From a virus (Duplodnaviria > Heunggongvirae > Uroviricota > Caudoviricetes), in the IMG/VR virus record IMGVR_UViG_648276647_000016, positions 1 through 34,499 of that record: a stretch of 34,499 nt of DNA; one strand, given 5' to 3'. Each line of letters starts with the position of its first letter. The first letter of the stretch is position 1. The translations under genes and the position numbers were made by a program. Shown piece after piece: positions 817 through 28,911 of the stretch. Under the pieces are notes generated by a model. It was not told where the DNA came from and did not search any database. It saw only the letters and a list, made by a program, of their open reading frames with translations.

Positions 817-920
817 GTTAAATCTCCAGATAGTCGCAGCACCCGTTGCGCCGCATATCCGGTCATTCTATTACCTGAAAAACCATATATGGATAGAAAA
901 CCCATAAATACGAACAGATA

Positions 921-935
921 TTACCTTTCAGGTGA
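921..935. promoter_or_regulatory. Operator-like palindrome TTACC-N5-GGTgA (one mismatch)
   Basis: TTACCTTTCAGGTGA; flanking sequence (cataaatacgaacagatattacc) resembles the -10/operator part of the PL-like promoter at 28395-28438. Confidence 0.4.
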
Positions 936-972
936 TTTGCAAAACGTACTGGATAGCAAACAAATTATTTGA

Positions 973-992
973 TACTGTATAAATATACAGTT
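973..992 (+). promoter_or_regulatory. LexA (SOS) box
   Basis: taCTGTATAAATATACAGtt: perfect CTGT-N8-ACAG palindrome with AT-rich centre, about 20 bp upstream of the ATG at 1012 and its GGAGAAG Shine-Dalgarno (999-1005). Confidence 0.8.
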
Positions 993-1011
993 ATTACATG
1001 GAGAAGATAAG

Positions 1012-1269
1012 ATGCAGCAGTATCACTATCCACTGGAAGACGGATTTACCGAAAGGATTCACACGCCGGGAGGCGTCAGGTCACTGGTGGAGGGATCGCA
1101 CTTGATGAAATTACTCCGGGATCTCGATAAGGATGGATTTAATGTCGATGGCCCACTTGCCGAACTGACTGCACTGATTAACTACGTCACCAGCTCGCAG
1201 ATGTCTATGCAGGATCTGCAAACACATCTCGACTATTGTGCCGAACAATTACTAAAACAAACCAGATAA
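1012..1269 (+). CDS. Small antirepressor-like protein (paralogue of the C-terminal domain of the Bro-N antirepressor), LexA-box controlled
   Basis: 85-aa ORF with good RBS. Aligns by eye to residues ~150-220 of the 1585-2280 product (IHTPGGVRSLVEGSHLMKLL..DGxxVxGxxAELT..QDLQTH vs IHSPSGVLGLTENSLLMNLL..DGHDVSGAAAELT..RDIQTH). Confidence 0.6.
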   Translation: MQQYHYPLEDGFTERIHTPGGVRSLVEGSHLMKLLRDLDKDGFNVDGPLAELTALINYVTSSQMSMQDLQTHLDYCAEQLLKQTR

Positions 1270-1272
1270 GGT

Positions 1273-1315
1273 TTGAAATTACCAAGTGGAGTGCTTATAT
1301 TTACCTTTGCGGTAA
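1273..1315 (+). promoter_or_regulatory. Sigma70-like promoter (TTGAAA-N17-TATATT) with operator palindrome TTACCTTTGCGGTAA (1301-1315) over the predicted start
   Basis: Read directly from sequence; operator matches the motif found in the immunity region. Confidence 0.5.
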
Positions 1316-1407
1316 ATTTACATCGCACTCCTCTTGTGCCATAGTAATCGGGCACTGGCAAAATCCAGTGCCGGGATTGGCGTCCCGGATTACTAAAAGG
1401 CGCATTC

Positions 1408-1427
1408 ACCGCGCAAGCGGTTTTTTT
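1408..1427 (+). terminator. Rho-independent terminator (ACCGC-GCAA-GCGGT + T7)
   Basis: 5-bp GC stem with GNRA loop followed by TTTTTTT, about 110 nt downstream of the promoter at 1273-1300. Confidence 0.55.
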
Positions 1428-1584
1428 ATGCGTATAGCACGGCCACATTCGTATTATGGTGGGCTGTGTGGGGGCACCGAAAGGTGCGCCGGGTCCTTTT
1501 AGCCGGTTACGCCAACCCTGCACAGTTCACCACCAACCGATTGGCGTCGGTAGTGGTGATTAACCAGACTAAAAGGTAACCACT

Positions 1585-2280
1585 ATGACAGCTACAAAAA
1601 GCACGTCCATTTTTTCTTTCGAATCCCAAGCCGATATACGAGTAATCGTCATTAATGGTGAGCCATGGTTTATCGCTTCAGATGTTTGTCGGGCTATAGG
1701 CATAGCAAACCATCGAGATGCTGTTCGAAAACTTGATGATGATGAGAAGGGCGTCGCTTCAACCGACACCCCTGGCGGTGAGCAAGAATCGATCATCATC
1801 TCCGAGTCAGGCCTCTACACACTGATCCTCCGCTGCCGCGATGCGGTGACACCAGGCACTATCCCCTACCGCTTTCGTAAATGGGTTACAGGTGAGGTTC
1901 TTCCTCAGATCCGCCGCACCGGAAGCTACATTAAAAACTCGCTCCCGCAGGAAGAACGCATAAAGATGGTTGCCGACCAGGTTGCCAACGCCACGGCGTC
2001 AGCAGTAATGCAGGCGATGAAGATAGAGAACAAAACCTACAGCGCCCCGCTGAAGCCAGGATACCGCAGTCTGATTCACTCGCCGTCTGGTGTTCTCGGC
2101 CTGACGGAGAACTCACTGCTGATGAATCTGCTGAACCAGTTACAGGACGACGGGCACGACGTATCGGGCGCGGCGGCGGAACTGACCACCATGTTCTGCT
2201 ACATTGTCGGTGTGAGCAAATGCCTGCGTGATATCCAGACGCACGCGGAGTACATCAACGACAAGGCAGGGTTCTTCTGA
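1585..2280 (+). CDS. Antirepressor, Bro-N domain family
   Basis: 231 aa; N-terminal region (EPWFIASDVCRAIGIAN ... ESGLYTLILRCR) matches my recollection of the Bro-N/antirepressor fold. RBS AAAAGG 8 bp upstream. Confidence 0.7.
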   Translation: MTATKSTSIFSFESQADIRVIVINGEPWFIASDVCRAIGIANHRDAVRKLDDDEKGVASTDTPGGEQESIIISESGLYTLILRCRDAVTPGTIPYRFRKWVTGEVLPQIRRTGSYIKNSLPQEERIKMVADQVANATASAVMQAMKIENKTYSAPLKPGYRSLIHSPSGVLGLTENSLLMNLLNQLQDDGHDVSGAAAELTTMFCYIVGVSKCLRDIQTHAEYINDKAGFF

Positions 2281-18830: not shown

Positions 18831-18867
18831 TTGACATTTAACGCACAAATTATTACCTTTAGGGTAA
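18831..18867 (+). promoter_or_regulatory. Promoter-like element (TTGACA at 18831-18836) with operator palindrome TTACCTTTAGGGTAA (18853-18867)
   Basis: Resembles the PL-like promoter/operator at 28395-28438; oriented toward the tRNA module. Confidence 0.45.
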
Positions 18868-19189
18868 CAAAAGAGTTCATTCCGTTTACTAACCTGACTG
18901 GCTTGTCGTTAAATTGAACAGGTGGAGTGAGCTTTTATTTTGAGCAGTACGGCGTATGGCACATGCGCCGATAGCGGTCTGGATACGTTTAAGGGGCACC
19001 CTCCCTTGCTCGGGCAAACGAACCAGGTAGCCGGAATGTGCAAGTCGAGCGGTTTTATTCCGCGCACGGGGATTCACCATCCCGGCGATTCGGTGTGACA
19101 CCTCGGAAGAGACGAGGGTACAACGATGAGAGCATTTATGGAGCCGCGACAAAGTGTGGCGCCTTAACAGGCTAAGTGCTCTCAGCGTT

Positions 19190-19266
19190 GTGGCATTAGC
19201 TCAGCTGGACAGAGCAACCGCCTTCTAAGCGGTTGGTCGCAGGTTCGAATCCTGCATGCCACGCCA
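19190..19266 (+). tRNA. tRNA-Arg (anticodon UCU)
   Basis: Hand-folded cloverleaf: acceptor GTGGCAT/ATGCCAC, D-stem GCTC/GAGC, anticodon stem ACCGC/GCGGT with loop CUUCUAA, T-arm GCAGG-TTCGAAT-CCTGC, discriminator G and encoded CCA. Confidence 0.85.
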
Positions 19267-19464
19267 GAATCACGCCTAAGGACCGTGATGCCAGAAGTTC
19301 CAGGGGCTTGGCGGTGATGGTTTCCCTTGAAGGACTATCACCGCCCTTTTTACAGCAGGACGCCATTGCGATGACTTCATGCTGTAAACCAGTACAGCCA
19401 CGGAAGGCATAACTCATTGCTTCCAGTTCGCCCGGTTCGCCGGGCATTTTTTTAAGGTGAGATT

Positions 19465-19821
19465 ATGAACGACCAGCAAATCGAAAAAGAAATCGTTGAG
19501 AAAGGCAAAACGGCACCGCGAGTTACGCCCCAATATATCGAAAGCATCATTCTTGAAGAGCATTTCTTTACTGCTTATGACGGTATTCGTGCCGCCAATA
19601 TGGGCGTTGGCGCTGCGTGGACAGCGCATAAATCTACAGACCTCCTTACTTTCTGCGTACTGGTGCTGAAGAATGGCTTCACCGTCACCGGAGAGAGCGC
19701 CTGTGCAAGTCCGGAAAATTTTGATGCAGAAATTGGTCGGAAGATTGCCCGGCAGAATGCTGTAAACAAAATCTGGATGCTCGAAGGTTACTTGCTGAAG
19801 CAGAAGCTAAGCGAGCAATAA
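19465..19821 (+). CDS. Conserved small phage protein (possibly N4 Gp49 / Sf6 Gp66-like)
   Basis: 118-aa ORF downstream of the tRNA; family assignment is a tentative recollection. Confidence 0.45.
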   Translation: MNDQQIEKEIVEKGKTAPRVTPQYIESIILEEHFFTAYDGIRAANMGVGAAWTAHKSTDLLTFCVLVLKNGFTVTGESACASPENFDAEIGRKIARQNAVNKIWMLEGYLLKQKLSEQ

Positions 19822-19825
19822 CACC

Positions 19826-19837
19826 GTGACATGTCAC
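19826..19837. repeat. Palindrome GTGACATGTCAC (copy 1, flanks cCGTGACATGTCACAa)
   Basis: Exact 12-bp palindrome between the Gp49-like gene stop and the terminator. Confidence 0.6.
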
Positions 19838-19842
19838 AAACA

Positions 19843-19870
19843 GCCAGCCGATGAGCTGGCTTTGTTTTAT
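19843..19870 (+). terminator. Rho-independent terminator (AGCCAGC-CGATGA-GCTGGCT + TTTGTTTTAT)
   Basis: Perfect 7-bp stem followed by a T-rich tract; sits between the convergent plus-strand module and the terminase large-subunit gene. Confidence 0.6.
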
Positions 19871-21387: not shown

Positions 21388-21980
21388 TGATTACCATCCT
21401 GACGTTCTTTGAGTCGCTTCCTGGCTGCTGCTATGCGATCAGCAATTGTCACATTCACATTAACATCCAGACGTTCTTTGAACGCGTTGACATCAACATG
21501 CTTACCAATCAGCTCAAGATTCTTCACCTTGTCAGGCCATTTAATTTTTTTGAGGATTGTCTCTATCGAATCCTCGTTCATGTTCATGATGGTCGATGAC
21601 AGATCAAAGCCGCTAAGCGTAGTGCGCCAGATTTTCGGCCACTCGCGGATTGGCTTAAGGCTCCCATCGTCGTTGAGGATATCAATCACGTCCATCTGGT
21701 CGATCTCCACCAGGCGCATGAGAACGTAATCAGCACTGACACGCATTCGTTTGTTGCGCTCTTCCATCAGCTCGGCAATCCGTTTTTGAATGCGTTCATC
21801 GCGCATCATGACACTGGCTTTAACTGCCGCTGTATTTGGGGAGAATCCTGCGTTAATCGCTGCCTGAGTCTGGTTTTCAGGCGTTTTGATGTATGACTGG
21901 CAATAAGCCTCCTGCATTGCTGTTAGTGGCTTAAATTGCGTTGATTTGCGTTTATAGGTTTTAGGTTCAGCAGGCATCAT
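21384..21980 (-). CDS. Terminase small subunit
   Basis: Position immediately upstream of the large subunit with overlap. Start placed at the ATG at 21978-21980; the track start at 22058 is a TTG preceding a low-complexity Thr/Val stretch. Confidence 0.55.
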   Translation of the reverse strand: MMPAEPKTYKRKSTQFKPLTAMQEAYCQSYIKTPENQTQAAINAGFSPNTAAVKASVMMRDERIQKRIAELMEERNKRMRVSADYVLMRLVEIDQMDVIDILNDDGSLKPIREWPKIWRTTLSGFDLSSTIMNMNEDSIETILKKIKWPDKVKNLELIGKHVDVNAFKERLDVNVNVTIADRIAAARKRLKERQDGNQ

Positions 21981-22054
21981 AACCACCGTGGTAATAGTTA
22001 CCGTTGTGGTAATAGTACCATGCAAAATAAAGCCGCCATAGTTGGCGGCAGTAT

Positions 22055-22869: not shown

Positions 22870-24369
22870 GTGACGCTCAATACTTCTCAGGTCAGTTACT
22901 ATATGACTCAGCGTAAGAAAGGTATAACTCAGCATATCTCGGCCATGAAGGCTGGTATCTCAGTCCGTTCTGGTCGTCGGATCGAAAAAGGAGAGTGGGC
23001 AAAAAACAGTGTTCGGCACTGGCGCACACGCAAAGATCCTCTGGAAGCTGTGTGGGACAGCATGCTTGTTCCTCTGTTGAAAGAGAGGCCGGCTCTGACA
23101 CCAACAACTCTGCTGGAGATGCTACAGGATAAATATCCCGGCCAGTATCCCAACAGCCTTCGAAGAACAATGCAACGGCGAGTTCGCGAATGGAAGCTAC
23201 AGTATGGTGCAGAGCAGGAGGTCATGTTCCGCCAGCGACATCAGCCCGGTCTGCGAGGTCTGTCGGACTTTACTGAACTGAAAGGTGTAGTTGTCACCAT
23301 CGCCGGTAAGTTGTTGGCGCATAAGTTGTATCACTTCCGTCTGGAATGGAGCCACTGGAGCTGGATGCGGGTTGTGCTGGGTGGTGAGAGCTTCTCTGCT
23401 CTGGCTGAAGGTCTGCAGGAAGCCCTCGGACAACTGGGCGGAGTGCCGGTAGAACATAAAACGGACAGCCTGAGGGCAGCATGGAAACAACAGGGCGAAG
23501 ATGGACGCCGCGAGCTGACTGAGCGTTATGCTGCTCTCTGTCAGCACTACGGAATGCAGGGCGTACACAATAATGCTGGTCGGGGCCACGAAAATGGCTC
23601 GGTTGAAAGTGCCCACGGACATCTGAAAAGGCGTATCTGTCAGGCGTTGATACTGCGGGGCAGTAACGACTTCAGCACCATAGAAGAATATCAGGCCTTC
23701 ATCACTCAGCAGGTTATGCGGCACAACCGTAACAATCAGGATCTGGTCAAGGAAGAACGTCTTCATCTGAAACCGCTGCCGCTTCGTCGCAGTGCTGACT
23801 ATGATGAGCTGACTGTGAGGGTTAGCCGCAGCAGTACCATCAATGTGAAGCACGTCGTCTACAGCGTACCTTCCCGGCTTGTAGGTCAACTGTTACGGGT
23901 CCGGTTATGGGACGATCGTCTGAGCTGTTATGTTGGCAGCAGCGAGGTCATGAGCTGCCCTCGTGTCAGACCAGAAAAAGGGAAGACGCGGGCCCGTCGT
24001 ATCGACTTCCGACATGTGATCGACAGTCTGGCAAAAAAGCCCGGTGCGTTCTGCCATGCAACGCTGAGAAATGACATCCTGCCAGACGATGAATGGCGGA
24101 GACTGTGGCGTCGCTTATGTAATCATCTGGAACCCGACATGGCAGGAAGGCTGATGGTACATGCCCTGAAACTGGCTGCAGGATACGACGATATCTCAGT
24201 CGTGGCAAAAGGTATGGAGCAGATGCTGAATACCCCGGGAAACGTGGATCTGCACCGGCTGATGCGCTTCCTGGGTATAAAGGAAAAGGCGTTGCCGGTA
24301 GTCAATGTGAAACAGCATAACCTGAGCAGTTATGAGCAACTACTGCGTGGCAAGGGAGGTTCGCAGTGA
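22870..24369 (+). CDS. istA: IS21-family transposase IstA
   Basis: 499 aa with N-terminal HTH-like region and central DDE-type domain; GTG start with AGGAAA Shine-Dalgarno (alternative ATG at 22903); stop overlaps the istB start. Confidence 0.7.
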   Translation: MTLNTSQVSYYMTQRKKGITQHISAMKAGISVRSGRRIEKGEWAKNSVRHWRTRKDPLEAVWDSMLVPLLKERPALTPTTLLEMLQDKYPGQYPNSLRRTMQRRVREWKLQYGAEQEVMFRQRHQPGLRGLSDFTELKGVVVTIAGKLLAHKLYHFRLEWSHWSWMRVVLGGESFSALAEGLQEALGQLGGVPVEHKTDSLRAAWKQQGEDGRRELTERYAALCQHYGMQGVHNNAGRGHENGSVESAHGHLKRRICQALILRGSNDFSTIEEYQAFITQQVMRHNRNNQDLVKEERLHLKPLPLRRSADYDELTVRVSRSSTINVKHVVYSVPSRLVGQLLRVRLWDDRLSCYVGSSEVMSCPRVRPEKGKTRARRIDFRHVIDSLAKKPGAFCHATLRNDILPDDEWRRLWRRLCNHLEPDMAGRLMVHALKLAAGYDDISVVAKGMEQMLNTPGNVDLHRLMRFLGIKEKALPVVNVKQHNLSSYEQLLRGKGGSQ

Positions 24370-24689
24370 GCAATATCCATCACCTTGAACGCAGCCTGCG
24401 TAAACTACGCCTGACACGAGTTGGAGCTGAATGGCACGCTCTGGAAAAACGAGCGCTGGCAGAAGGCTGGACACCATCGCGCTATCTTCTGACGCTATGC
24501 AATGAAGAACTCCTGTGGCGCGAGAGTGAAAAACTGCGTCGTTATAAAAAGGAGGCCCGGTTGCCAGTTGCCAAAACGCTAAGCGAATACGACTTCAGTC
24601 AGGTGCCGGAACTGAATGGAGCTCAGTTCCGGCAACTCTGTGAAACGACAGACTGGGTTGATGCTGGAGAAAACGTTCTGCTGTTCGGG
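24366..24689 (+). pseudogene. istB: IS21-family helper ATPase IstB, N-terminal fragment
   Basis: MSNIHHLERSLRKLRL...DWVDAGENVLLFG matches the IstB N-terminus up to the Walker A position, where the expected GPSGVGKTH is replaced by unrelated sequence. Confidence 0.65.
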
Positions 24690-24847
24690 GCCAGCGCATT
24701 AGCACGCACCAGTTGCACTTCCAGTTGCGTTGCCAAATCGCTGATCAGCTTTGCCACACTGCGCATATCAACGGCACCACATTCAGCTTTCAGTTCCGAA
24801 GCCATCTCATGCCCGGCGGCAACTAACCCTTTGATATTACTTTCCAT
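24690..24847 (-). pseudogene. N-terminal fragment (~52 codons) of a phage early-right gene, truncated at the IS21-family junction
   Basis: MESNIKGLVAAGHEMASELKAECGAVDMRSVAKLISDLATQLEVQLVRANA reads as protein-like; beyond ~24690 the frame is antisense to istB. Confidence 0.4.
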
Positions 24848-24908
24848 CTTTACCCTCGCTTATCCACATAACTTATTGATTACATTGATAACTAAAAAGA
24901 TCGTCGAT

Positions 24909-25253
24909 TCAGAACTCTTCGATATTCCAGCCACCATCTGCTTTCTTTGGTTTAACCGTTACCCCGATAATTCGGAACGGATACTGATCTGCGGCGACTT
25001 TGGTTTTCACCCTAGCGTCGTCGGTCCAGAAACCTTTCACTTCGTGCAGTTCCATCTCTCCTGTGGCGAGCATCACAGCGAAATCTGGCGTATAGAACGT
25101 GTTGTCAGCTAACCGCAGCTTGATACCCTCGAATCGATACCAGGCTATTTCCCCTGCGCGTTTACGCTGCTCAAGGTGCTGGCAATACGCAGATTCTGTT
25201 TTGTTCATCTGGCCTGTTTTGAGTCGACCAAGAGCCTGTATCTGTTTTCTCAT
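24909..25253 (-). CDS. DUF1064-like phage protein (putative PD-(D/E)XK-fold)
   Basis: 114 aa; pattern YRFEGIKLRLA...YTPDF...ELHEVKG recalled from DUF1064 proteins of lambdoid replication regions. Confidence 0.5.
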   Translation of the reverse strand: MRKQIQALGRLKTGQMNKTESAYCQHLEQRKRAGEIAWYRFEGIKLRLADNTFYTPDFAVMLATGEMELHEVKGFWTDDARVKTKVAADQYPFRIIGVTVKPKKADGGWNIEEF

Positions 25254-25256
25254 GAT

Positions 25257-25332
25257 TTACCCCTTAGGTAATTAAAAACCACATAAGACATGAAATCAAT
25301 AGATATTAGAACATTTTATTACCTATAAGGTA
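25257..25332 (-). promoter_or_regulatory. Promoter flanked by two operator palindromes (TTACCCCTTAGGTAA 25257-25271; TTACCTATAAGGTAA 25318-25332)
   Basis: Minus-strand reading (tctaatatctattgatttcatgtcttatgtggtttttaattacc) parallels the PL-like region (ctcatatctattgacatcaaaccaaatacgcataattattacc). Confidence 0.5.
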
Positions 25333-25370
25333 ATTATATAGGCGTAAAAAAATGCGCTATCGCGCTGGTA

Positions 25371-26156
25371 TTACTTGATAAATCCTGCCGCCTTTCCCCG
25401 CCTGTATTCCTCCATCAGCCACTGCGCCGGTGTTATTCCCCCCAGGGTGGCTGCGTTAGGCATGCACCCGAAACTTCGCCCTAGTGGATGGTAAACGTCT
25501 CTCCCTGTGTCCGGAGGTGTACTCATGGGTTCTGGCTTTGCCTGTATGCTGATCACTGGATCGGGTATCTGCTGTCCGGAAGCCACCTTTTTCGCCCAAT
25601 CATCGAGCAGCCTGCGCGCGTGTTTCTCAACCTCAATCTCGCTAAGCTGGCGCTGATACATTGCACGGCGGGTATCACATACGACCCAGTACATAACCGG
25701 ATGCCGCCACGGGAATCTTTCGGGACCGCCAGGATATAAACTTTTTTCCTTGCTGTACCGGTGAAACTCCGCCATCACATCGTCAATGGTGACACCAAGA
25801 ACCATCTTGCTGTCTTTGCACCACTTGATAAATTGCCCAGGCGACGGCCAGAACGGAGATTCACTGGCGCGGGCGTGGCGCATACCAGCAGAAACCTGTT
25901 CACGGGTTCGGATCCCACCTTCGGCAAACGCAGCAATCCACTGCTGTTTTGCAGCGACTTCCTGCTCTGGCGTCTTCAGGTTGGTTACCACTGCCGCCGG
26001 AAACAGTTGTTTCAGCTGTTTGAAAAGGGCATCAACAAGCCTCTCTGCTGACATGTTCACCACATTGTCATTGTTGACGTACTGATGCTCATAACCTGAC
26101 ATGCGAGAAAGGGCTTCTCCGTCACGGTTTTGTATCGCGGTAAAAACGTTGTTCAC
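25371..26156 (-). CDS. Replication protein P-like (DnaB helicase loader)
   Basis: GGIRTREQVSAGMRHARASESPFWPSPGQFIKWCKD matches my recollection of lambda P (NGITTMEQVNAGMRVARRQNRPFLPSPGQFVAWCRE). Start placed at the GTG at 26154-26156 after a GGAGGA Shine-Dalgarno, giving a GTGA overlap with the O stop. Confidence 0.75.
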   Translation of the reverse strand: MNNVFTAIQNRDGEALSRMSGYEHQYVNNDNVVNMSAERLVDALFKQLKQLFPAAVVTNLKTPEQEVAAKQQWIAAFAEGGIRTREQVSAGMRHARASESPFWPSPGQFIKWCKDSKMVLGVTIDDVMAEFHRYSKEKSLYPGGPERFPWRHPVMYWVVCDTRRAMYQRQLSEIEVEKHARRLLDDWAKKVASGQQIPDPVISIQAKPEPMSTPPDTGRDVYHPLGRSFGCMPNAATLGGITPAQWLMEEYRRGKAAGFIK

Positions 26157-26968
26157 AAGAAATCCTCCCACGCTTCAGGGCTGTTCCAGTGCGGAACGTT
26201 GTTATCAGGTAATGTTGATTGCTTCTGTCTGCTAATCTGCAGCCGCCTTGCCAGCTTCTGCTCCCACTGTGCCTGATGGTATGCCTTACCCTCAGCCATC
26301 CAGTAAATTCTGAATTCTGCAAGTTCCTGTGCCGTTGGCAGACTGTCCAGGTAGATTCCCTGCAATGAGCTTTTCCGAAGAAAGTCATCTGATGGTTGCC
26401 ATTGTTCATGCATGACAAATTTGCCTAATTGCCCTAGCCCACCAGGAGGAACAAAGTTATTCATCACGGCGTTGTTTGCGCCGGGGTCATGAGGCACAGA
26501 ATCCCCGGTTTTTGTCCTGCTCTCCCTCTCTTGGTTAAATGACTGGTTATATGACTGGTTCTGGATCCCGTTTTTGGGATCATTCAACATCCCGTTTTTG
26601 GGATCATTCAACATCCCGTTTTTGGGTATATTCCCGTTTTCGGGAACATTACCGTTTTCGGGTTTATTACACCCTTCTAGGTTGCCTTTAATGTTCCCTT
26701 TTTTGGTTATATTAAGAGAGAAAACCCGCACTCTTTTCGTCGCTCCCTTTCTCTCTCCGGTATCTGAAATAAGCCCCATTTTCATGAGCGATATAAGCCC
26801 GGCCTGTACGGTTTTTTTATTCAGGCAAGTGTCTTTAACGAGGCGTTCTATGCTGGGGTAGCAGAGGTTATATTCATCGGCTCTGTCAGCCATCGAGAGC
26901 AGTATGAGCTTTAATGATGAGCTACCTGGATCTGTCTCCCAGGCCCAATCTGTTGCATGTCTGCTCAT
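26153..26968 (-). CDS. Replication initiator O-like protein (N-terminal winged-helix, central repeat region holding the origin)
   Basis: 271 aa; strong RBS (GGAGATT); internal peptide repeats NDPKNGML are encoded by the DNA iterons; immediately upstream of P. Confidence 0.65.
   Translation of the reverse strand: MSRHATDWAWETDPGSSSLKLILLSMADRADEYNLCYPSIERLVKDTCLNKKTVQAGLISLMKMGLISDTGERKGATKRVRVFSLNITKKGNIKGNLEGCNKPENGNVPENGNIPKNGMLNDPKNGMLNDPKNGIQNQSYNQSFNQERESRTKTGDSVPHDPGANNAVMNNFVPPGGLGQLGKFVMHEQWQPSDDFLRKSSLQGIYLDSLPTAQELAEFRIYWMAEGKAYHQAQWEQKLARRLQISRQKQSTLPDNNVPHWNSPEAWEDFL
26564..26668. repeat. Origin iterons: two perfect 24-bp direct repeats (ATCCCGTTTTTGGGATCATTCAAC) plus three degenerate copies, each containing TCCCG-N-CGGGA-type dyad symmetry
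   Basis: Directly visible tandem repeats inside the O-like gene, followed by an AT-rich stretch (26669-26720), as in lambda ori. Confidence 0.7.
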
Positions 26969-26983
26969 GATTAATCTCCGCTA

Positions 26984-27250
26984 TCAGCTTGAGTGTTGTG
27001 GGGAGGAATTAATCATGATCTGCTTAATCTCTGCCCTGATGCGACGGTTTGATTCCATGGTGCACTCAACACAGTGTCCGTTGTAAACCCAGCGTTCACT
27101 GTCATGTCCGTGCTTACATGGTTTTCCGGTGTAGTAGCGTTTAAGTCCGCGCTTTGCGGCATCAATACGTGTAATGATTTCCATGGTAAGCCCTGTTATT
27201 AGTATTGGGATTACGGTTATTTTGTGCTGACACAAAAAAAGATCAACCAT
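26984..27250 (-). CDS. Hypothetical zinc-finger protein (early-right operon)
   Basis: C-x4-H ... C-x2-C motif (KPCKHGH...HCVEC); true start may be the internal ATG at 27182-27184. Confidence 0.4.
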   Translation of the reverse strand: MVDLFLCQHKITVIPILITGLTMEIITRIDAAKRGLKRYYTGKPCKHGHDSERWVYNGHCVECTMESNRRIRAEIKQIMINSSPQHSS

Positions 27251-27283
27251 ATTTGGTTTTTCATTACCTTTGAGGTACGAATA

Positions 27284-27312
27284 GATATGAAAAGACCGCC
27301 GGGTGGCGGTCT
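27284..27312 (-). terminator. Rho-independent terminator downstream of the cro-like gene (AGACCGCC-ACCC-GGCGGUCU + UUUUCAU)
   Basis: Perfect 8-bp GC stem at 27293-27312 followed on the minus strand by a U-tract; tR1-like position. Confidence 0.55.
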
Positions 27313-27333
27313 ACAGAGGATTGTGGCTGGATA

Positions 27334-27564
27334 TCATGAGTAGAAGAAGTATGCCAGTTCTGCTTTTGAGCGCAGCCATTGTCTTGTTTTACAGGCTTTA
27401 AAAAGCCCATTCATCAATACCTTACCTGGCATTTTGCGCTTACCTGTTAAGTGAGTCTGGATATAGTGACTCGTCGTTCCGGCTTCCTGTGCGAAGGCTT
27501 CACGCTCATCCGGAGTAAGTGCAAGCCAGTGCTTTTTGAAATCGAAATGTCCGTTATCGCTCAT
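27334..27564 (-). CDS. Cro-like HTH regulator (YdaS/Cro-type)
   Basis: 76 aa with an HTH-like segment (EAFAQEAGTTSHYIQTHLTGKRKMP); divergent from the repressor gene. Confidence 0.6.
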   Translation of the reverse strand: MSDNGHFDFKKHWLALTPDEREAFAQEAGTTSHYIQTHLTGKRKMPGKVLMNGLFKACKTRQWLRSKAELAYFFYS

Positions 27565-27600
27565 AGCTATTGCCTGATATTTATTTCAGATAATAAATAT

Positions 27601-27663
27601 TCACCCATAAGGTAACAAAAATCAAGGATAGTTACCTATGGGGTGCATTTACCTGTTGGGTAA
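27601..27663. promoter_or_regulatory. OR-like operator cluster: TCACCCATAAGGTAA (27601-27615), TTACCTATGGGGTGC (27632-27646), TTACCTGTTGGGTAA (27649-27663)
   Basis: Three copies of the TTACC-N5-GGTAA palindrome in the 154-bp divergent intergenic region between the cro-like and repressor genes. Confidence 0.6.
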
Positions 27664-27718
27664 TATTGCTTTAAATTGAATCACCTACTGATTCATATAT
27701 GAGGCGATTTTCCAGAAA

Positions 27719-28303
27719 ATGAAAAGTATCCAGGACGTCCGCAGGCAAAATCTCAACGACTTGATCGACCGTGAATTCAATGGTGTTCAGACGCGGATGG
27801 CAGAAAAACTTGGAACTCAGGCAAATCTGGTAAACCGCTGGGCTCTTGGCAAGAAGGTTATCGGCGACCAGGTTGCTCGAAAAATTGAAGCTGCCGCCAA
27901 TAAACCCCGTAACTGGCTTGATATCGATCGCTCGCTTTCTCATGAAGGTTTTCAGCCTGTCGGCCCAAGCGACATTGGTCAGCTGGCGGCTCACAACCTG
28001 GAACGCTGGATGAGCGAAAGCCGCGACCTTTCAACGCAGGGAAAACTTCACCGCGCATCCGGCGTCGCCCAGGTGACAATCAGCCGCCTGTTAAACAATG
28101 AGGTCAGCGTTTCCATTTCCACCCTGGAGAATGTTGCATCCGCATTCGGGCGTCACGGATATGAACTACTGATTCACCCGCACGACCCTGCGACTATCAA
28201 CTATGACCGCTCGCGCTACGCATTGTTACCCGAAACCGAGAAAGCAAAGATTGAAAGTTACATTGAATTTGTCATCAACCAGAACGAAAAAAGCAAACAA
28301 TAA
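27719..28303 (+). CDS. Prophage immunity repressor, tandem HTH domains, no S24 peptidase domain
   Basis: 194 aa with two XRE-like HTH segments (QTRMAEKLGTQANLVNRW and LHRASGVAQVTISRLLN); no Ala-Gly/Ser-Lys autocleavage module; divergent from cro and followed by a terminator. Confidence 0.65.
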   Translation: MKSIQDVRRQNLNDLIDREFNGVQTRMAEKLGTQANLVNRWALGKKVIGDQVARKIEAAANKPRNWLDIDRSLSHEGFQPVGPSDIGQLAAHNLERWMSESRDLSTQGKLHRASGVAQVTISRLLNNEVSVSISTLENVASAFGRHGYELLIHPHDPATINYDRSRYALLPETEKAKIESYIEFVINQNEKSKQ

Positions 28304-28322
28304 AACTATAGTTTTCAGCAAG

Positions 28323-28350
28323 TAAGCCGCCTCATGGCGGCTTTTTTATT
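28323..28350 (+). terminator. Rho-independent terminator (AAGCCGCC-TCAT-GGCGGCTT + TTTTTATT)
   Basis: Perfect 8-bp stem plus T-tract 20 bp after the repressor stop. Confidence 0.7.
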
Positions 28351-28360
28351 GCCCATGCTA

Positions 28361-28438
28361 TTACCTAATGGGTAATTTTTTTAACTCATATCTATTGACA
28401 TCAAACCAAATACGCATAATTATTACCTCAACGGTAAC
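28361..28438 (+). promoter_or_regulatory. PL-like promoter (TTGACA 28395-28400, -10 near 28417-28423) bracketed by operators TTACCTAATGGGTAA (28361-28375) and TTACCTCAACGGTAA (28424-28438)
   Basis: Consensus -35 hexamer, AT-rich -10, and the downstream operator lies over the predicted transcription start. Confidence 0.6.
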
Positions 28439-28456
28439 AGACCGAGGTAACAAGTT

Positions 28457-28609
28457 ATGCAGTGGAAAATCATCAACGGTTGGTACTGCGTTACTGCATG
28501 CGGATTCATGAGCTGGAAGTTCCGCACCTTACAGGAAGGCATTAAGTGGGCTTTCGTCAGCAAAGAAGCTCGCGATGTGGCCAATGATAACGAGATATGG
28601 GAGGGCTGA
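28457..28609 (+). CDS. Small hypothetical protein, first gene of the early-left operon (50 aa, Trp/Cys-rich, hydrophobic N-terminus)
   Basis: Hand-called (below the ORF-track size cut-off): ATG 28457 preceded by GAGG; stop overlaps the next start. Confidence 0.35.
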   Translation: MQWKIINGWYCVTACGFMSWKFRTLQEGIKWAFVSKEARDVANDNEIWEG

Positions 28610-28611
28610 TA

Positions 28612-28911
28612 ATGAACGTTAATCAGCAGAAAAATCTTCAAAAAATCATGCTGGCATTCGACAAGGACTACCGCCTGTCAGAACAGCTATATGACCGACA
28701 AGTTGAACTGATCGAGAGCATCCGGCTTCATCAACTGGCCTCAACTTTTGACGCTGTAACAGGCAAAGGAGTTCGCCAGGAAGTGCTGGAGGCAGCTAAA
28801 GACAGCCCTGAGTTCGAAGAACTTATGGATGCCTACCGGCGCGAGGCAATGGCTATTATCGCCCGCTGGGATCTGGCGGATCGGATTGATGGGCAGAGGG
28901 AAGCGGCATGA
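28612..28911 (+). CDS. Hypothetical early protein
   Basis: ORF from the ATG at 28612 (track start 28597 is further upstream in frame); stop overlaps the exonuclease start (ATGA). Confidence 0.45.
   Translation: MNVNQQKNLQKIMLAFDKDYRLSEQLYDRQVELIESIRLHQLASTFDAVTGKGVRQEVLEAAKDSPEFEELMDAYRREAMAIIARWDLADRIDGQREAA

What the first reader, a model, noticed from the sequence alone, without database searches (positions are those of the whole stretch)
25257..25332. Near-duplicate of the PL-like promoter/operator cassette inside the early-right operon
Read on the minus strand, 25332-25257 has operator, then atatctattga, then a spacer, then taattacc and a second operator, closely paralleling the plus-strand PL-like region 28361-28438. 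A repressor-controlled internal promoter would place the DUF1064 gene and everything downstream (now IS21-disrupted) under direct immunity control, independent of PR read-through. A shorter rearranged copy of the same cassette lies at ~27240-27295.
Basis: seen in the sequence. Interest (0 to 1): 0.4.

Follow-up and report, generated by a model that had tools for sequence, protein, structure and literature searches.

The report
Repressor-gated internal promoter of phiV10-like prophage
A prophage of the phiV10/epsilon15 family carries, between its replication genes and the next gene block, a second copy of the "two repressor sites bracketing a promoter" layout that it uses at its main leftward promoter; the layout is real and conserved, but it is ordinary phage regulation and one of its two sites is already marked in the epsilon15 database record.

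Summary
Read on the minus strand, 25334-25256 holds two exact TTACC-N5-GGTAA palindromes 62 bp apart centre to centre. They bracket ATATCTATTGAtt (-35 TTGATT), a 17-nt spacer and TTTAAT, and end 2 nt before the ATG of the DUF1064 gene. PL (28361-28437, plus strand) has the same layout in the same register.

Eight exact copies of the palindrome occur in the window against 0.02 expected. The window is a phiV10/epsilon15-like (Uetakevirus) prophage, and its repressor is a full-length homologue of the tetrameric Rep of Salmonella phage SPC32H.

The cassette keeps both operators, the 62-bp spacing, CTATTGA and an AT-rich -10 in relatives from at least ten enterobacterial genera. It sits in front of either a DUF1064 or a RuvC gene.

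"Near-duplicate" is too strong. Outside the operators and one shared 11-mer, identity to PL is about 32%.

Promoter activity is inferred, not shown, and the -10 in this lineage lacks the consensus A at -11. The epsilon15 GenBank record already marks the upstream operator, and sites elsewhere in that genome, as repressor-binding.

Verdict: a real, conserved, probably Rep-repressed internal promoter. It is a new member of a known kind and of modest interest.

The parts
25346..25365 (-). Small terminator-like hairpin GCGC-GATA-GCGC (25365-25354) followed by a T7 run (25352-25346), just after the stop codon of the lambda-P-like gene.
   Evidence: The fold gives -7.4 kcal/mol, z -1.8. phiV10 annotates the orthologue as a putative rho-independent terminator. 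The stem and T-run are at least 90% conserved and the loop varies across 71 distinct variants.
25318..25334 (.). O1, the promoter-distal Rep operator ATTACCTATAAGGTAAT, centred about -62 from the predicted start.
   Evidence: It is an exact TTACC-N5-GGTAA match. The orthologous site in epsilon15 is annotated protein_bind 'repressor; lysogeny' (L003 3751-3767). The half-sites are exact in all 7 relatives found by BLAST, which was not a motif search.
25294..25306 (-). ATATCTATTGATT block holding the -35 candidate TTGATT (25299-25294); the 11-mer is shared exactly with PL.
   Evidence: CTATTGA is at least 90% conserved in both the internal and the PL cassette sets.
25271..25276 (-). -10 candidate TTTAAT, 17 nt after the -35, in the same register relative to O2 as AATTAT at PL. 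It has T rather than A at -11.
   Evidence: Read from the sequence. It was not listed by the consensus scan. The orthologues TTGAAA-18-TAAATT (epsilon15) and TTGATA-18-TAAATT (Klebsiella phage) were listed.
25256..25272 (.). O2, the promoter-proximal Rep operator TTTACCCCTTAGGTAAT. It overlaps the last base of the -10, the predicted start (about 25264) and the Shine-Dalgarno AAGGGG (25265-25260).
   Evidence: It is an exact match, is conserved in all relatives, and is not annotated in any record seen.
24909..25253 (-). DUF1064 gene, the first gene served by the cassette; its ATG lies 3 nt after O2.
   Evidence: Pfam PF06356, E 3e-7. In relatives the same slot holds either DUF1064 or a RuvC-type resolvase.
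22870..24689 (+). IS21-family remnant (IstA-like 499 aa, truncated IstB). It replaces the genes after codon ~52 of the eae-like gene, of which a remnant survives at 24690-24847 on the minus strand.
   Evidence: Pfam and the BLAST boundary against phiV10.
28360..28438 (+). PL cassette: O1 28361-28375, TTGACA 28395-28400, AATTAT 28418-28423, O2 28423-28437, preceded by the rep terminator at 28324-28343.
   Evidence: 10 of 12 promoter match; -18 kcal/mol hairpin.
27250..27312 (-). tR1-like terminator (27312-27293), then the PL-related blocks TCATATCTATT and AAACCAAATA split by a single near-operator (27264-27278, GGTAC).
   Evidence: The near-operator, with the same single mismatch, recurs in phiV10, Tyrion and IMG/VR relatives.
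27719..28303 (+). rep, the prophage repressor that should bind the operators.
   Evidence: It matches PDB 5D50 (SPC32H Rep) at E 5e-42 over residues 1-190 and has an HTH_3 domain.
27601..27663 (.). OR region with three operators (27601, one mismatch; 27632, two mismatches; 27649, exact) between rep and the cro-like gene.
   Evidence: the PR-like promoter at 27618-27590 was found.

Best explanation
The region is an internal early-right promoter, here called Pint. It is bracketed by two operators for the prophage's tetrameric Rep repressor.

In a lysogen, Rep binds O2, which covers the -10 edge and the transcription start, and O1, which lies 62 bp upstream (about six helical turns, so on the same face of the DNA). 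Most likely one tetramer bridges both sites and closes a small loop around the promoter, as at PL. When the LexA-controlled antirepressor Ant takes Rep apart, PL, PR and Pint open together. Pint then transcribes DUF1064 and the following nin-like genes without depending on read-through of the two terminators between PR and this point.

Shown here: both operators, their spacing, their register relative to the -35/-10 candidates, their conservation, and the homology of Rep.

Inferred: Rep binding at these two sites, looping, promoter activity and its strength.
For: (1) The operators are exact and far beyond chance: 8 in the window against 0.02 expected.

(2) The geometry matches PL: 62 bp centre to centre, the -35 at the same offset, a 17-nt spacer, and O2 starting at the last base of the -10.

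(3) Seven relatives found by BLAST, not by motif, from Escherichia, Enterobacter, Salmonella and Klebsiella all keep both exact operators 62 bp apart, although the intergenic DNA is only 76-83% identical.

(4) Seventy-one distinct internal-cassette variants from IMG/VR concentrate their conservation on the hairpin stem, the T-run, AAAATAT, CTATTGA, T.TGG.T.T.AAT and the operators. Species-representative genomes of Citrobacter, Klebsiella, Kluyvera, Scandinavium, Superficieibacter, Pseudocitrobacter and Ca. Erwinia carry it too.

(5) Most contigs that have room for both carry a PL-type and an internal pair 3.0-3.4 kb apart.

(6) The cassette precedes non-homologous genes, DUF1064 or RuvC, with the junction at the ATG. 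It therefore behaves as a self-contained regulatory module.

(7) The orthologous positions in epsilon15 and in a Klebsiella phage pass the sigma-70 consensus scan.

(8) The epsilon15 GenBank record marks the O1 orthologue as a repressor-binding site.

(9) Rep is homologous along its whole length to SPC32H Rep. That protein is described as a tetramer with two separated pairs of DNA-binding domains and a loop-type tetramerisation domain, and it is inactivated by Ant (PMC9638917, PMC9986798). An ant-like ORF with a perfect LexA box lies at 1012-1269.
Against: There are no transcript or binding data for this site in any paper I could read.

In this lineage the -10 candidate (TTTAAT, or TTAATT at 18 nt) lacks the consensus A at -11, so the scan did not list it. 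The promoter may be weak or may need an activator.

The upstream hairpin is only 4 bp (-7.4 kcal/mol, z -1.8), so read-through from PR probably also reaches DUF1064.

Four of five relatives that have a PL pair and enough DNA on the relevant side lack the cassette altogether, so it is dispensable.

A conserved T.TGG motif in the spacer is unexplained.
Confidence: 0.62

Rival explanations
1. The two operators are functional Rep sites, but there is no promoter. Rep bound here acts as a roadblock that reinforces the weak terminator so that PR read-through cannot reach the nin-like and late genes in a lysogen. It could also act as an anchor for long-range Rep bridging with OR (2.3 kb away), as lambda CI bridges OL and OR.
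For: The -10 in this lineage is poor and was not listed by the scan. Every terminator in the rightward array is followed by Rep operators, including two sites without a credible promoter: 27264 after the tR1-like terminator, and the 21980/21998 tandem between a terminator and the terS ATG. Rep is a tetramer with a loop-type tetramerisation domain, and crystal contacts suggest octamers (PMC9986798).
Against: A roadblock or anchor would not need CTATTGA at a fixed offset, a 17-18-nt spacing to an AT-rich hexamer, or O2 in the exact PL register. Yet these are the best-conserved inter-operator positions across genera, and the orthologues pass the promoter scan.
Confidence: 0.25
2. The cassette is mainly a conserved junction sequence between exchangeable gene modules (replication module | nin-like module). 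It would be kept because recombination between related phages occurs there, with the operators riding along.
For: Different genes follow it (DUF1064 or RuvC), and different replication genes precede it: lambda-P type here, and a DnaT-like gene plus a cytosine methylase in epsilon15. The few nucleotides between the conserved elements are hypervariable.
Against: This does not explain the exact 62-bp spacing, the invariant half-sites or the promoter register. It is compatible with the main explanation rather than an alternative to it.
Confidence: 0.08
3. It is a decaying, non-functional duplicate of PL, or a chance resemblance.
For: Identity to PL outside the operators and the 11-mer is about 32%.
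Against: Eight exact operators against 0.02 expected. All 20 half-site positions have zero diversity, while neighbouring bases reach pi 0.5. The cassette is conserved across at least ten enterobacterial genera.
Confidence: 0.02

Closest known systems
Repressor-binding sites annotated in Salmonella phage epsilon15 (GenBank AY150271.2; Kropinski et al. 2007, Virology 369:234; paper not readable here)
   Same: The site between the replication gene and the next gene (record 35906-35922) is the orthologue of O1. The record also marks three sites at PL and single sites before terS, before gp3 and before the tailspike gene. These correspond to the scattered exact sites in this window.
   Different: Only O1 is marked there. 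O2, the -35/-10 pair and the 62-bp pairing shared with PL are not annotated. The phiV10 record marks only a terminator at this position.
SPC32H Rep/Ant switch (Kim & Ryu 2013 J Virol; Kim et al. 2016 PNAS; PDB 5D50, 5D4Z)
   Same: The repressor here is a full-length homologue (E 5e-42). SPC32H has the same internal cassette (L004 2642/2704) and the same PL pair. An ant-like ORF with a LexA box is present in the window.
   Different: According to a later structural paper, the structural mechanism of repression 'has not been extensively characterized' (PMC9986798). I could not read the primary papers, so I do not know which operators were tested.
Lambda OL/PL and OR/PR operators, and cooperative CI binding to operators 5-6 helical turns apart (Hochschild & Ptashne 1986; from my own knowledge)
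   Same: Palindromic operators overlap the promoter, the gene order is the same (repressor, then its terminator, then PL), and in-phase spacing allows one oligomer to hold two sites.
   Different: Lambda has adjacent operators and no repressor-controlled promoter inside the PR operon; it uses N and Q antitermination instead. Here the operators flank the promoter at -62 and +1, and a second such unit sits after the replication genes.
N15 / phiKO2 CB repressor with OL operators at the repA promoter (PMC4997575)
   Same: The prophage repressor directly controls a further promoter besides the cB/cro switch, through a pair of operators overlapping that promoter.
   Different: That protein family, the operator sequence and the target (plasmid-prophage replication) are unrelated. 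Those sites are the OL equivalent, not an extra unit inside the rightward operon.
Mycobacteriophage L5 gp71 'stoperators' (Brown et al. 1997; from my own knowledge)
   Same: Many repressor sites are scattered through the genome, at operon junctions and beyond the main switch.
   Different: Stoperators are asymmetric and orientation-dependent, number about thirty, and block elongation. The sites here are palindromic, few, and mostly sit on -10/+1 positions.

Membership tests
epsilon15/SPC32H-type Rep operator | 15-17-bp palindrome (A)TTACC-N5-GGTAA(T) | tested here: met
   Exact at 25257-25271 and 25319-25333.
epsilon15/SPC32H-type Rep operator | A cognate repressor of that family is encoded in the same element | tested here: met
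   The product of 27719-28303 matches PDB 5D50 at E 5e-42 over its full length.
epsilon15/SPC32H-type Rep operator | Orthology to a site recorded as repressor-binding in the type phage | tested here: met
   O1 aligns to the epsilon15 protein_bind feature 'repressor'. O2 has no recorded counterpart.
epsilon15/SPC32H-type Rep operator | Demonstrated binding of Rep (EMSA or footprint) | not testable with these tools
   No accessible paper reports it for this site.
sigma-70 promoter | -35 and -10 hexamers 16-18 nt apart with A at -11 and T at -7 | tested here: inconclusive
   The window has TTGATT-17-TTTAAT, 9 of 12 but with T at -11, and the scan did not list it. The orthologues TTGAAA-18-TAAATT and TTGATA-18-TAAATT were listed. 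The BUCT554 orthologue was not.
sigma-70 promoter | A mapped transcription start | not testable with these tools
   No data are available.
Duplicate of the PL/OL cassette | Same order and spacing of the elements | tested here: met
   The alignment from O1 to O2 is ungapped; both have 62-bp operator spacing, a 17-nt promoter spacer and a shared 11-mer.
Duplicate of the PL/OL cassette | Sequence homology beyond the functional elements | tested here: not met
   Only 11 of 34 inter-operator positions outside the 11-mer are identical. In epsilon15 and SPC32H only CTATTGA is shared.
Intrinsic terminator (upstream element) | A G+C-rich hairpin followed by a T-run | tested here: inconclusive
   A 4-bp GCGC stem with a tetraloop and T7: -7.4 kcal/mol, z -1.8. 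It falls below the scan's 5-pair rule. It is annotated in phiV10, and the Klebsiella orthologue, with 6 pairs, passes the scan.
L5-type stoperator | An asymmetric site whose effect depends on its orientation relative to transcription | tested here: not met
   The sites are perfect palindromes.

The most novel reading that the evidence does not exclude
epsilon15-like phages may not use a lambda-style antitermination cascade at all. Instead, every terminator-bounded unit would be gated directly by one looping, tetrameric repressor: PL, PR, the internal promoter, the isrK/C4 unit, a tRNA moron and the terS junction. At PL and at the internal promoter, the repressor would clamp operator pairs exactly six helical turns apart into a micro-loop around the promoter. 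In addition, the centre and upstream flank of the auxiliary operator O1 are about 20-fold more variable than the surrounding DNA. That would make them a fast-evolving tuning knob for loop strength, or a protein- or palindrome-associated mutation hot spot.
Probability: 0.15. Interest if true: 0.6.

Novelty: new member of a known kind. Interest (0 to 1): 0.3.

Why it matters
If Pint is active, induction of this widespread prophage family would switch on the recombination/nin-like block directly, rather than through read-through. The region around the cassette (window 24800-28700) matches in 564 of 5,426 complete E. coli genomes, and the family also occurs in Salmonella, Klebsiella and Enterobacter.

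The paired operators 62 bp apart give a concrete natural substrate for testing how the structurally unusual SPC32H-type Rep tetramer represses and how Ant releases it. A later structural paper says this is not yet characterised.

In practical terms, the cassette is a compact, Rep-controlled expression module. That is relevant to phiV10-based reporter phages.

Beyond that, it is conventional phage regulation.

Tried and rejected
Literature. The epsilon15 genome paper (DOI, PMC2698709, PMID) and both SPC32H papers (PMC3807360, PMC4983836) are not held. The ZX5 paper predicts four promoters but maps no operators.

Rfam. Nothing lies at or near the cassette. The only hits in the window are isrK, C4 and a tRNA, all elsewhere.

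Promoter scan of the window. It lists PL and PR but not the internal site, so I relied on register and conservation and checked the orthologues.

A possible hairpin between the O1 upstream flank and the O1 centre. It is perfect in this window (CCTATA...TATAGG) and in some relatives. Across 60 variants only 95 of 240 pairs are complementary, against 74 expected. The z of about 4 is inflated by relatedness, so I do not accept it as a structure.

The third site as a promoter. I found no acceptable -35/-10 in any register (reading).

The genome-wide pattern scan. Hits outside Enterobacterales are mostly AT-rich chance matches or unrelated Firmicutes operator clusters, not this cassette.

Full report
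What the window is. The region 24800-28700 is 97-98% identical to Escherichia phage phiV10 and its relatives (genus Uetakevirus, epsilon15-like). It matches in 564 of 5,426 complete E. coli genomes.

The local gene order on the minus strand is as follows:
- a cro-like gene (27564-27334) and a strong terminator (27312-27293);
- a small ORF;
- a DnaT/HTH replication gene (26968-26153);
- a lambda-P-like gene (26171-25371);
- the intergenic region in question;
- DUF1064 (25253-24909);
- the first ~52 codons of an eae-like gene.

On the plus strand lie rep (27719-28303), its terminator, and then PL and the early-left genes. An IS21-family remnant (22870-24689, with IstB truncated) replaces the rest of the nin-like block.

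The observation. On the minus strand the intergenic region reads: stop codon of P, hairpin GCGC-GATA-GCGC plus T7, 11 nt, O1 ATTACCTTATAGGTAAT, aaaatgttcta, ATATCTATTGAtt, 17 nt, TTTAAT, O2 TTACCTAAGGGGTAA, atc, ATG. PL reads: terminator, O1 ATTACCTAATGGGTAAT, tttttttaactc, ATATCTATTGAca, 17 nt, AATTAT, O2 TTACCTCAACGGTAA.

The two align without gaps from O1 to O2. Both operator pairs are 62 bp apart centre to centre. Exact TTACC-N5-GGTAA occurs eight times in the window against 0.02 expected. ATATCTATTGA occurs exactly only at these two places.

Outside the operators and that 11-mer, only 11 of 34 positions agree. The resemblance is therefore one of layout and functional elements, not of a recent duplication.

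The third site. The minus strand at 27312-27250 holds a -15 kcal/mol terminator. After it come TCATATCTATT and AAACCAAATA, two blocks found elsewhere in the window only in PL. In PL they are 6 nt apart, the gap being the -35 GACATC. Here they are 20 nt apart, and the insert contains one near-operator, GTACC-TCAAA-GGTAA. I found no usable -35/-10. The same near-operator, with the same single mismatch, recurs in phiV10, Tyrion and several IMG/VR relatives. It is PL-related DNA, but it is an operator-only site.

Conservation. BLAST with the 221-bp intergenic region, with no motif imposed, found relatives down to 76% identity. In phiV10, Tyrion, epsilon15, SPC32H, BUCT554 and Klebsiella phage ST512-KPC3phi13.3, both operators are exact and 62 bp apart. 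The same holds for their PL pairs, with 63 bp in one case.

Most were ~40-kb contigs, many with two pairs 3.0-3.4 kb apart. Seventy-one distinct internal-type and 58 PL-type sequences give these consensus lines:
- internal: GCGC....GCGC-TTTTTTTAC...-TTACC-N5-GGTAA-tAAAATAT...CTATTGA...T.TGG.T.T.AAT-TACC-N5-GGTAA-A..ATG
- PL: ...TTACC-N5-GGTAATTTTTT...TCATA.CTATTGAC...-TTACC-N5-GGTAA

In that set the half-sites are fixed by the search pattern. The conservation of the hairpin stem, the T-run, CTATTGA and the AT-rich -10 is not.

The gene after the internal cassette is DUF1064 in most variants and a RuvC-type resolvase in others, with the switch at the ATG. Species-representative genomes of Citrobacter, Klebsiella, Kluyvera, Scandinavium, Superficieibacter, Pseudocitrobacter and Ca. 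Erwinia carry it.

The cassette is not universal. Of five relatives with a PL pair and enough DNA on the relevant side, four lack it and one has two operators 18 bp apart instead.

The repressor. The 194-aa product of 27719-28303 aligns over its full length to SPC32H Rep (PDB 5D50, E 5e-42). Secondary sources describe that protein as follows (PMC9638917, PMC9986798):
- it is a tetramer;
- its DNA-binding domain pairs come from different dimers;
- two domain pairs lie about 100 Å apart;
- it has a p53-like, loop-type tetramerisation domain;
- it is not cleaved in the SOS response but is disassembled by a LexA-controlled antirepressor, Ant.

The window has an 85-aa ORF at 1012-1269 behind a perfect LexA box. 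A tetramer with two DNA-binding units fits operators that come in pairs: 17-18 bp apart at OR and before terS, and 62 bp apart (about six turns, in phase) at PL and at the internal site.

Mechanism proposed. If TTTAAT is the -10, O2 spans about -7 to +8 and is centred on the start, and O1 is centred near -62. Rep at O2 would exclude RNA polymerase. O1 would add cooperativity through a small loop.

On induction, Ant releases Rep from all units at once. Pint then transcribes DUF1064 and the nin-like genes. The resulting leader would be only ~13 nt long and would begin at the Shine-Dalgarno AAGGGG inside O2.

Every step from Rep binding onward is inference.

Weak points:
- The -10 of the E. coli lineage has T at -11 and was not listed by the scan. 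The epsilon15 and Klebsiella orthologues, which differ by one base, were listed as TTGAAA/TTGATA-18-TAAATT, and BUCT554 was not.
- The upstream hairpin is weak, so read-through from PR probably contributes as well.

The main rival is that these are operator-only sites, acting as a roadblock or a looping anchor. In its favour, every terminator in the rightward array is followed by Rep operators, including two places with no credible promoter: 27264, and the 21980/21998 tandem just before terS.

Comparison with what is known. The epsilon15 GenBank record already marks the O1 orthologue as a repressor-binding site. It also marks three PL sites and single sites before terS, gp3 and the tailspike gene. 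The scattered operator network is therefore known at annotation level. O2, the promoter and the shared 62-bp geometry are not annotated there, and phiV10 marks only a terminator here.

No paper I could read maps operators in this family. Functionally it resembles lambda OL/PL. It also resembles the N15/phiKO2 case, where the prophage repressor controls a further promoter through two operators (PMC4997575).

Side observation. Among 26-29 distinct E. coli-type copies, nucleotide diversity is about 0.016 in the end of gene P. It is zero in the hairpin and in all half-site positions. It reaches 0.5 in the five central bases of O1 and 0.24 in the ten bases between the T-run and O1. The same pattern holds at O1 of PL and in the loop of the rep terminator. 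By contrast, the OR operators, including their centres, are invariant. Pairs of sequences that differ at 6-10 of 591 flanking positions differ at 4.4 of these 16 positions on average. I have no tested explanation for this.

Verdict. The feature is real, conserved, and most likely a Rep-repressed internal promoter built on the PL plan. It is a new member of a known kind, partly anticipated by the epsilon15 annotation, and of modest interest.

Noticed in passing
window 25324-25328, 25335-25344; 28353-28359, 28367-28370; 28332-28335: Hypervariable islands. The centre of the promoter-distal operator O1, the few bases between the terminator T-run and O1, and the loop of the rep terminator have nucleotide diversity of 0.24-0.6 among E. 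coli-type copies whose flanking DNA differs by only 1-3%. The OR operators, including their centres, are invariant. In this window the flank and centre form a perfect inverted repeat, CCTATA-taattacct-TATAGG.
   Followed up: partly
window 21980-22012 (minus strand), with a terminator at ~22049-22029: Two tandem Rep operators 18 bp apart (one exact, one with a single mismatch) sit between a -13.8 kcal/mol terminator and the ATG of the small terminase gene. The same tandem precedes terS in BUCT554 and in a Klebsiella phage, and epsilon15 annotates a repressor site there. The late operon junction therefore appears to be directly gated by Rep.
   Followed up: partly
window 1274-2280 (+): An exact Rep operator (1301-1315) overlaps the -10 of a TTGAAA-17-TATATT promoter. 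That promoter reads into isrK (1352-1427) and a C4 antisense RNA (1452-1537), both above the Rfam gathering score, and then into a 231-aa ORF. This is a P1 immI-like unit placed under the primary repressor.
   Followed up: partly
window 860-1269 (+): An 85-aa ORF in the expected position of the antirepressor Ant (1012-1269) lies behind a perfect LexA box, CTGTATAAATATACAG (~975-990). A one-mismatch Rep operator sits at 921-935 upstream.
   Followed up: no
window 18831-19870 (+): A plus-strand unit lies inside the minus-strand late operon. It consists of TTGACA, an exact Rep operator (18853-18867), about 300 nt of unassigned and possibly structured sequence, a tRNA (19190-19263), a 118-aa ORF (19465-19821) and a terminator-like hairpin. 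epsilon15 annotates a repressor site and an RNase III site at the matching place.
   Followed up: no
window 22870-24689: An IS21-family remnant: an IstA-like ORF of 499 aa, and an IstB that matches only the first 107 of 238 profile positions. The element is itself truncated, and the prophage genes between the eae-like gene and the terS-proximal ORFs are missing.
   Followed up: partly
relatives: L003 3222-3686 versus window 24909-25253: DUF1064 and a RuvC-type Holliday-junction resolvase occupy the same slot, directly after the cassette, in different relatives. This hints that DUF1064 is a functional analogue, that is, a structure-specific nuclease.
   Followed up: no
L137, L148, L161, L164, L172, L174, L181 (Bacillales genomes); L128, L166, L168, L184 (Acholeplasma-like): Clusters of three TTACC-N5-GGTAA palindromes surround and lie inside TTGACA promoters in Firmicutes and Mollicutes genomes. 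This fits the published remark that the DNA-binding domains of SPC32H Rep and pLS20 Rco are homologous.
   Followed up: no
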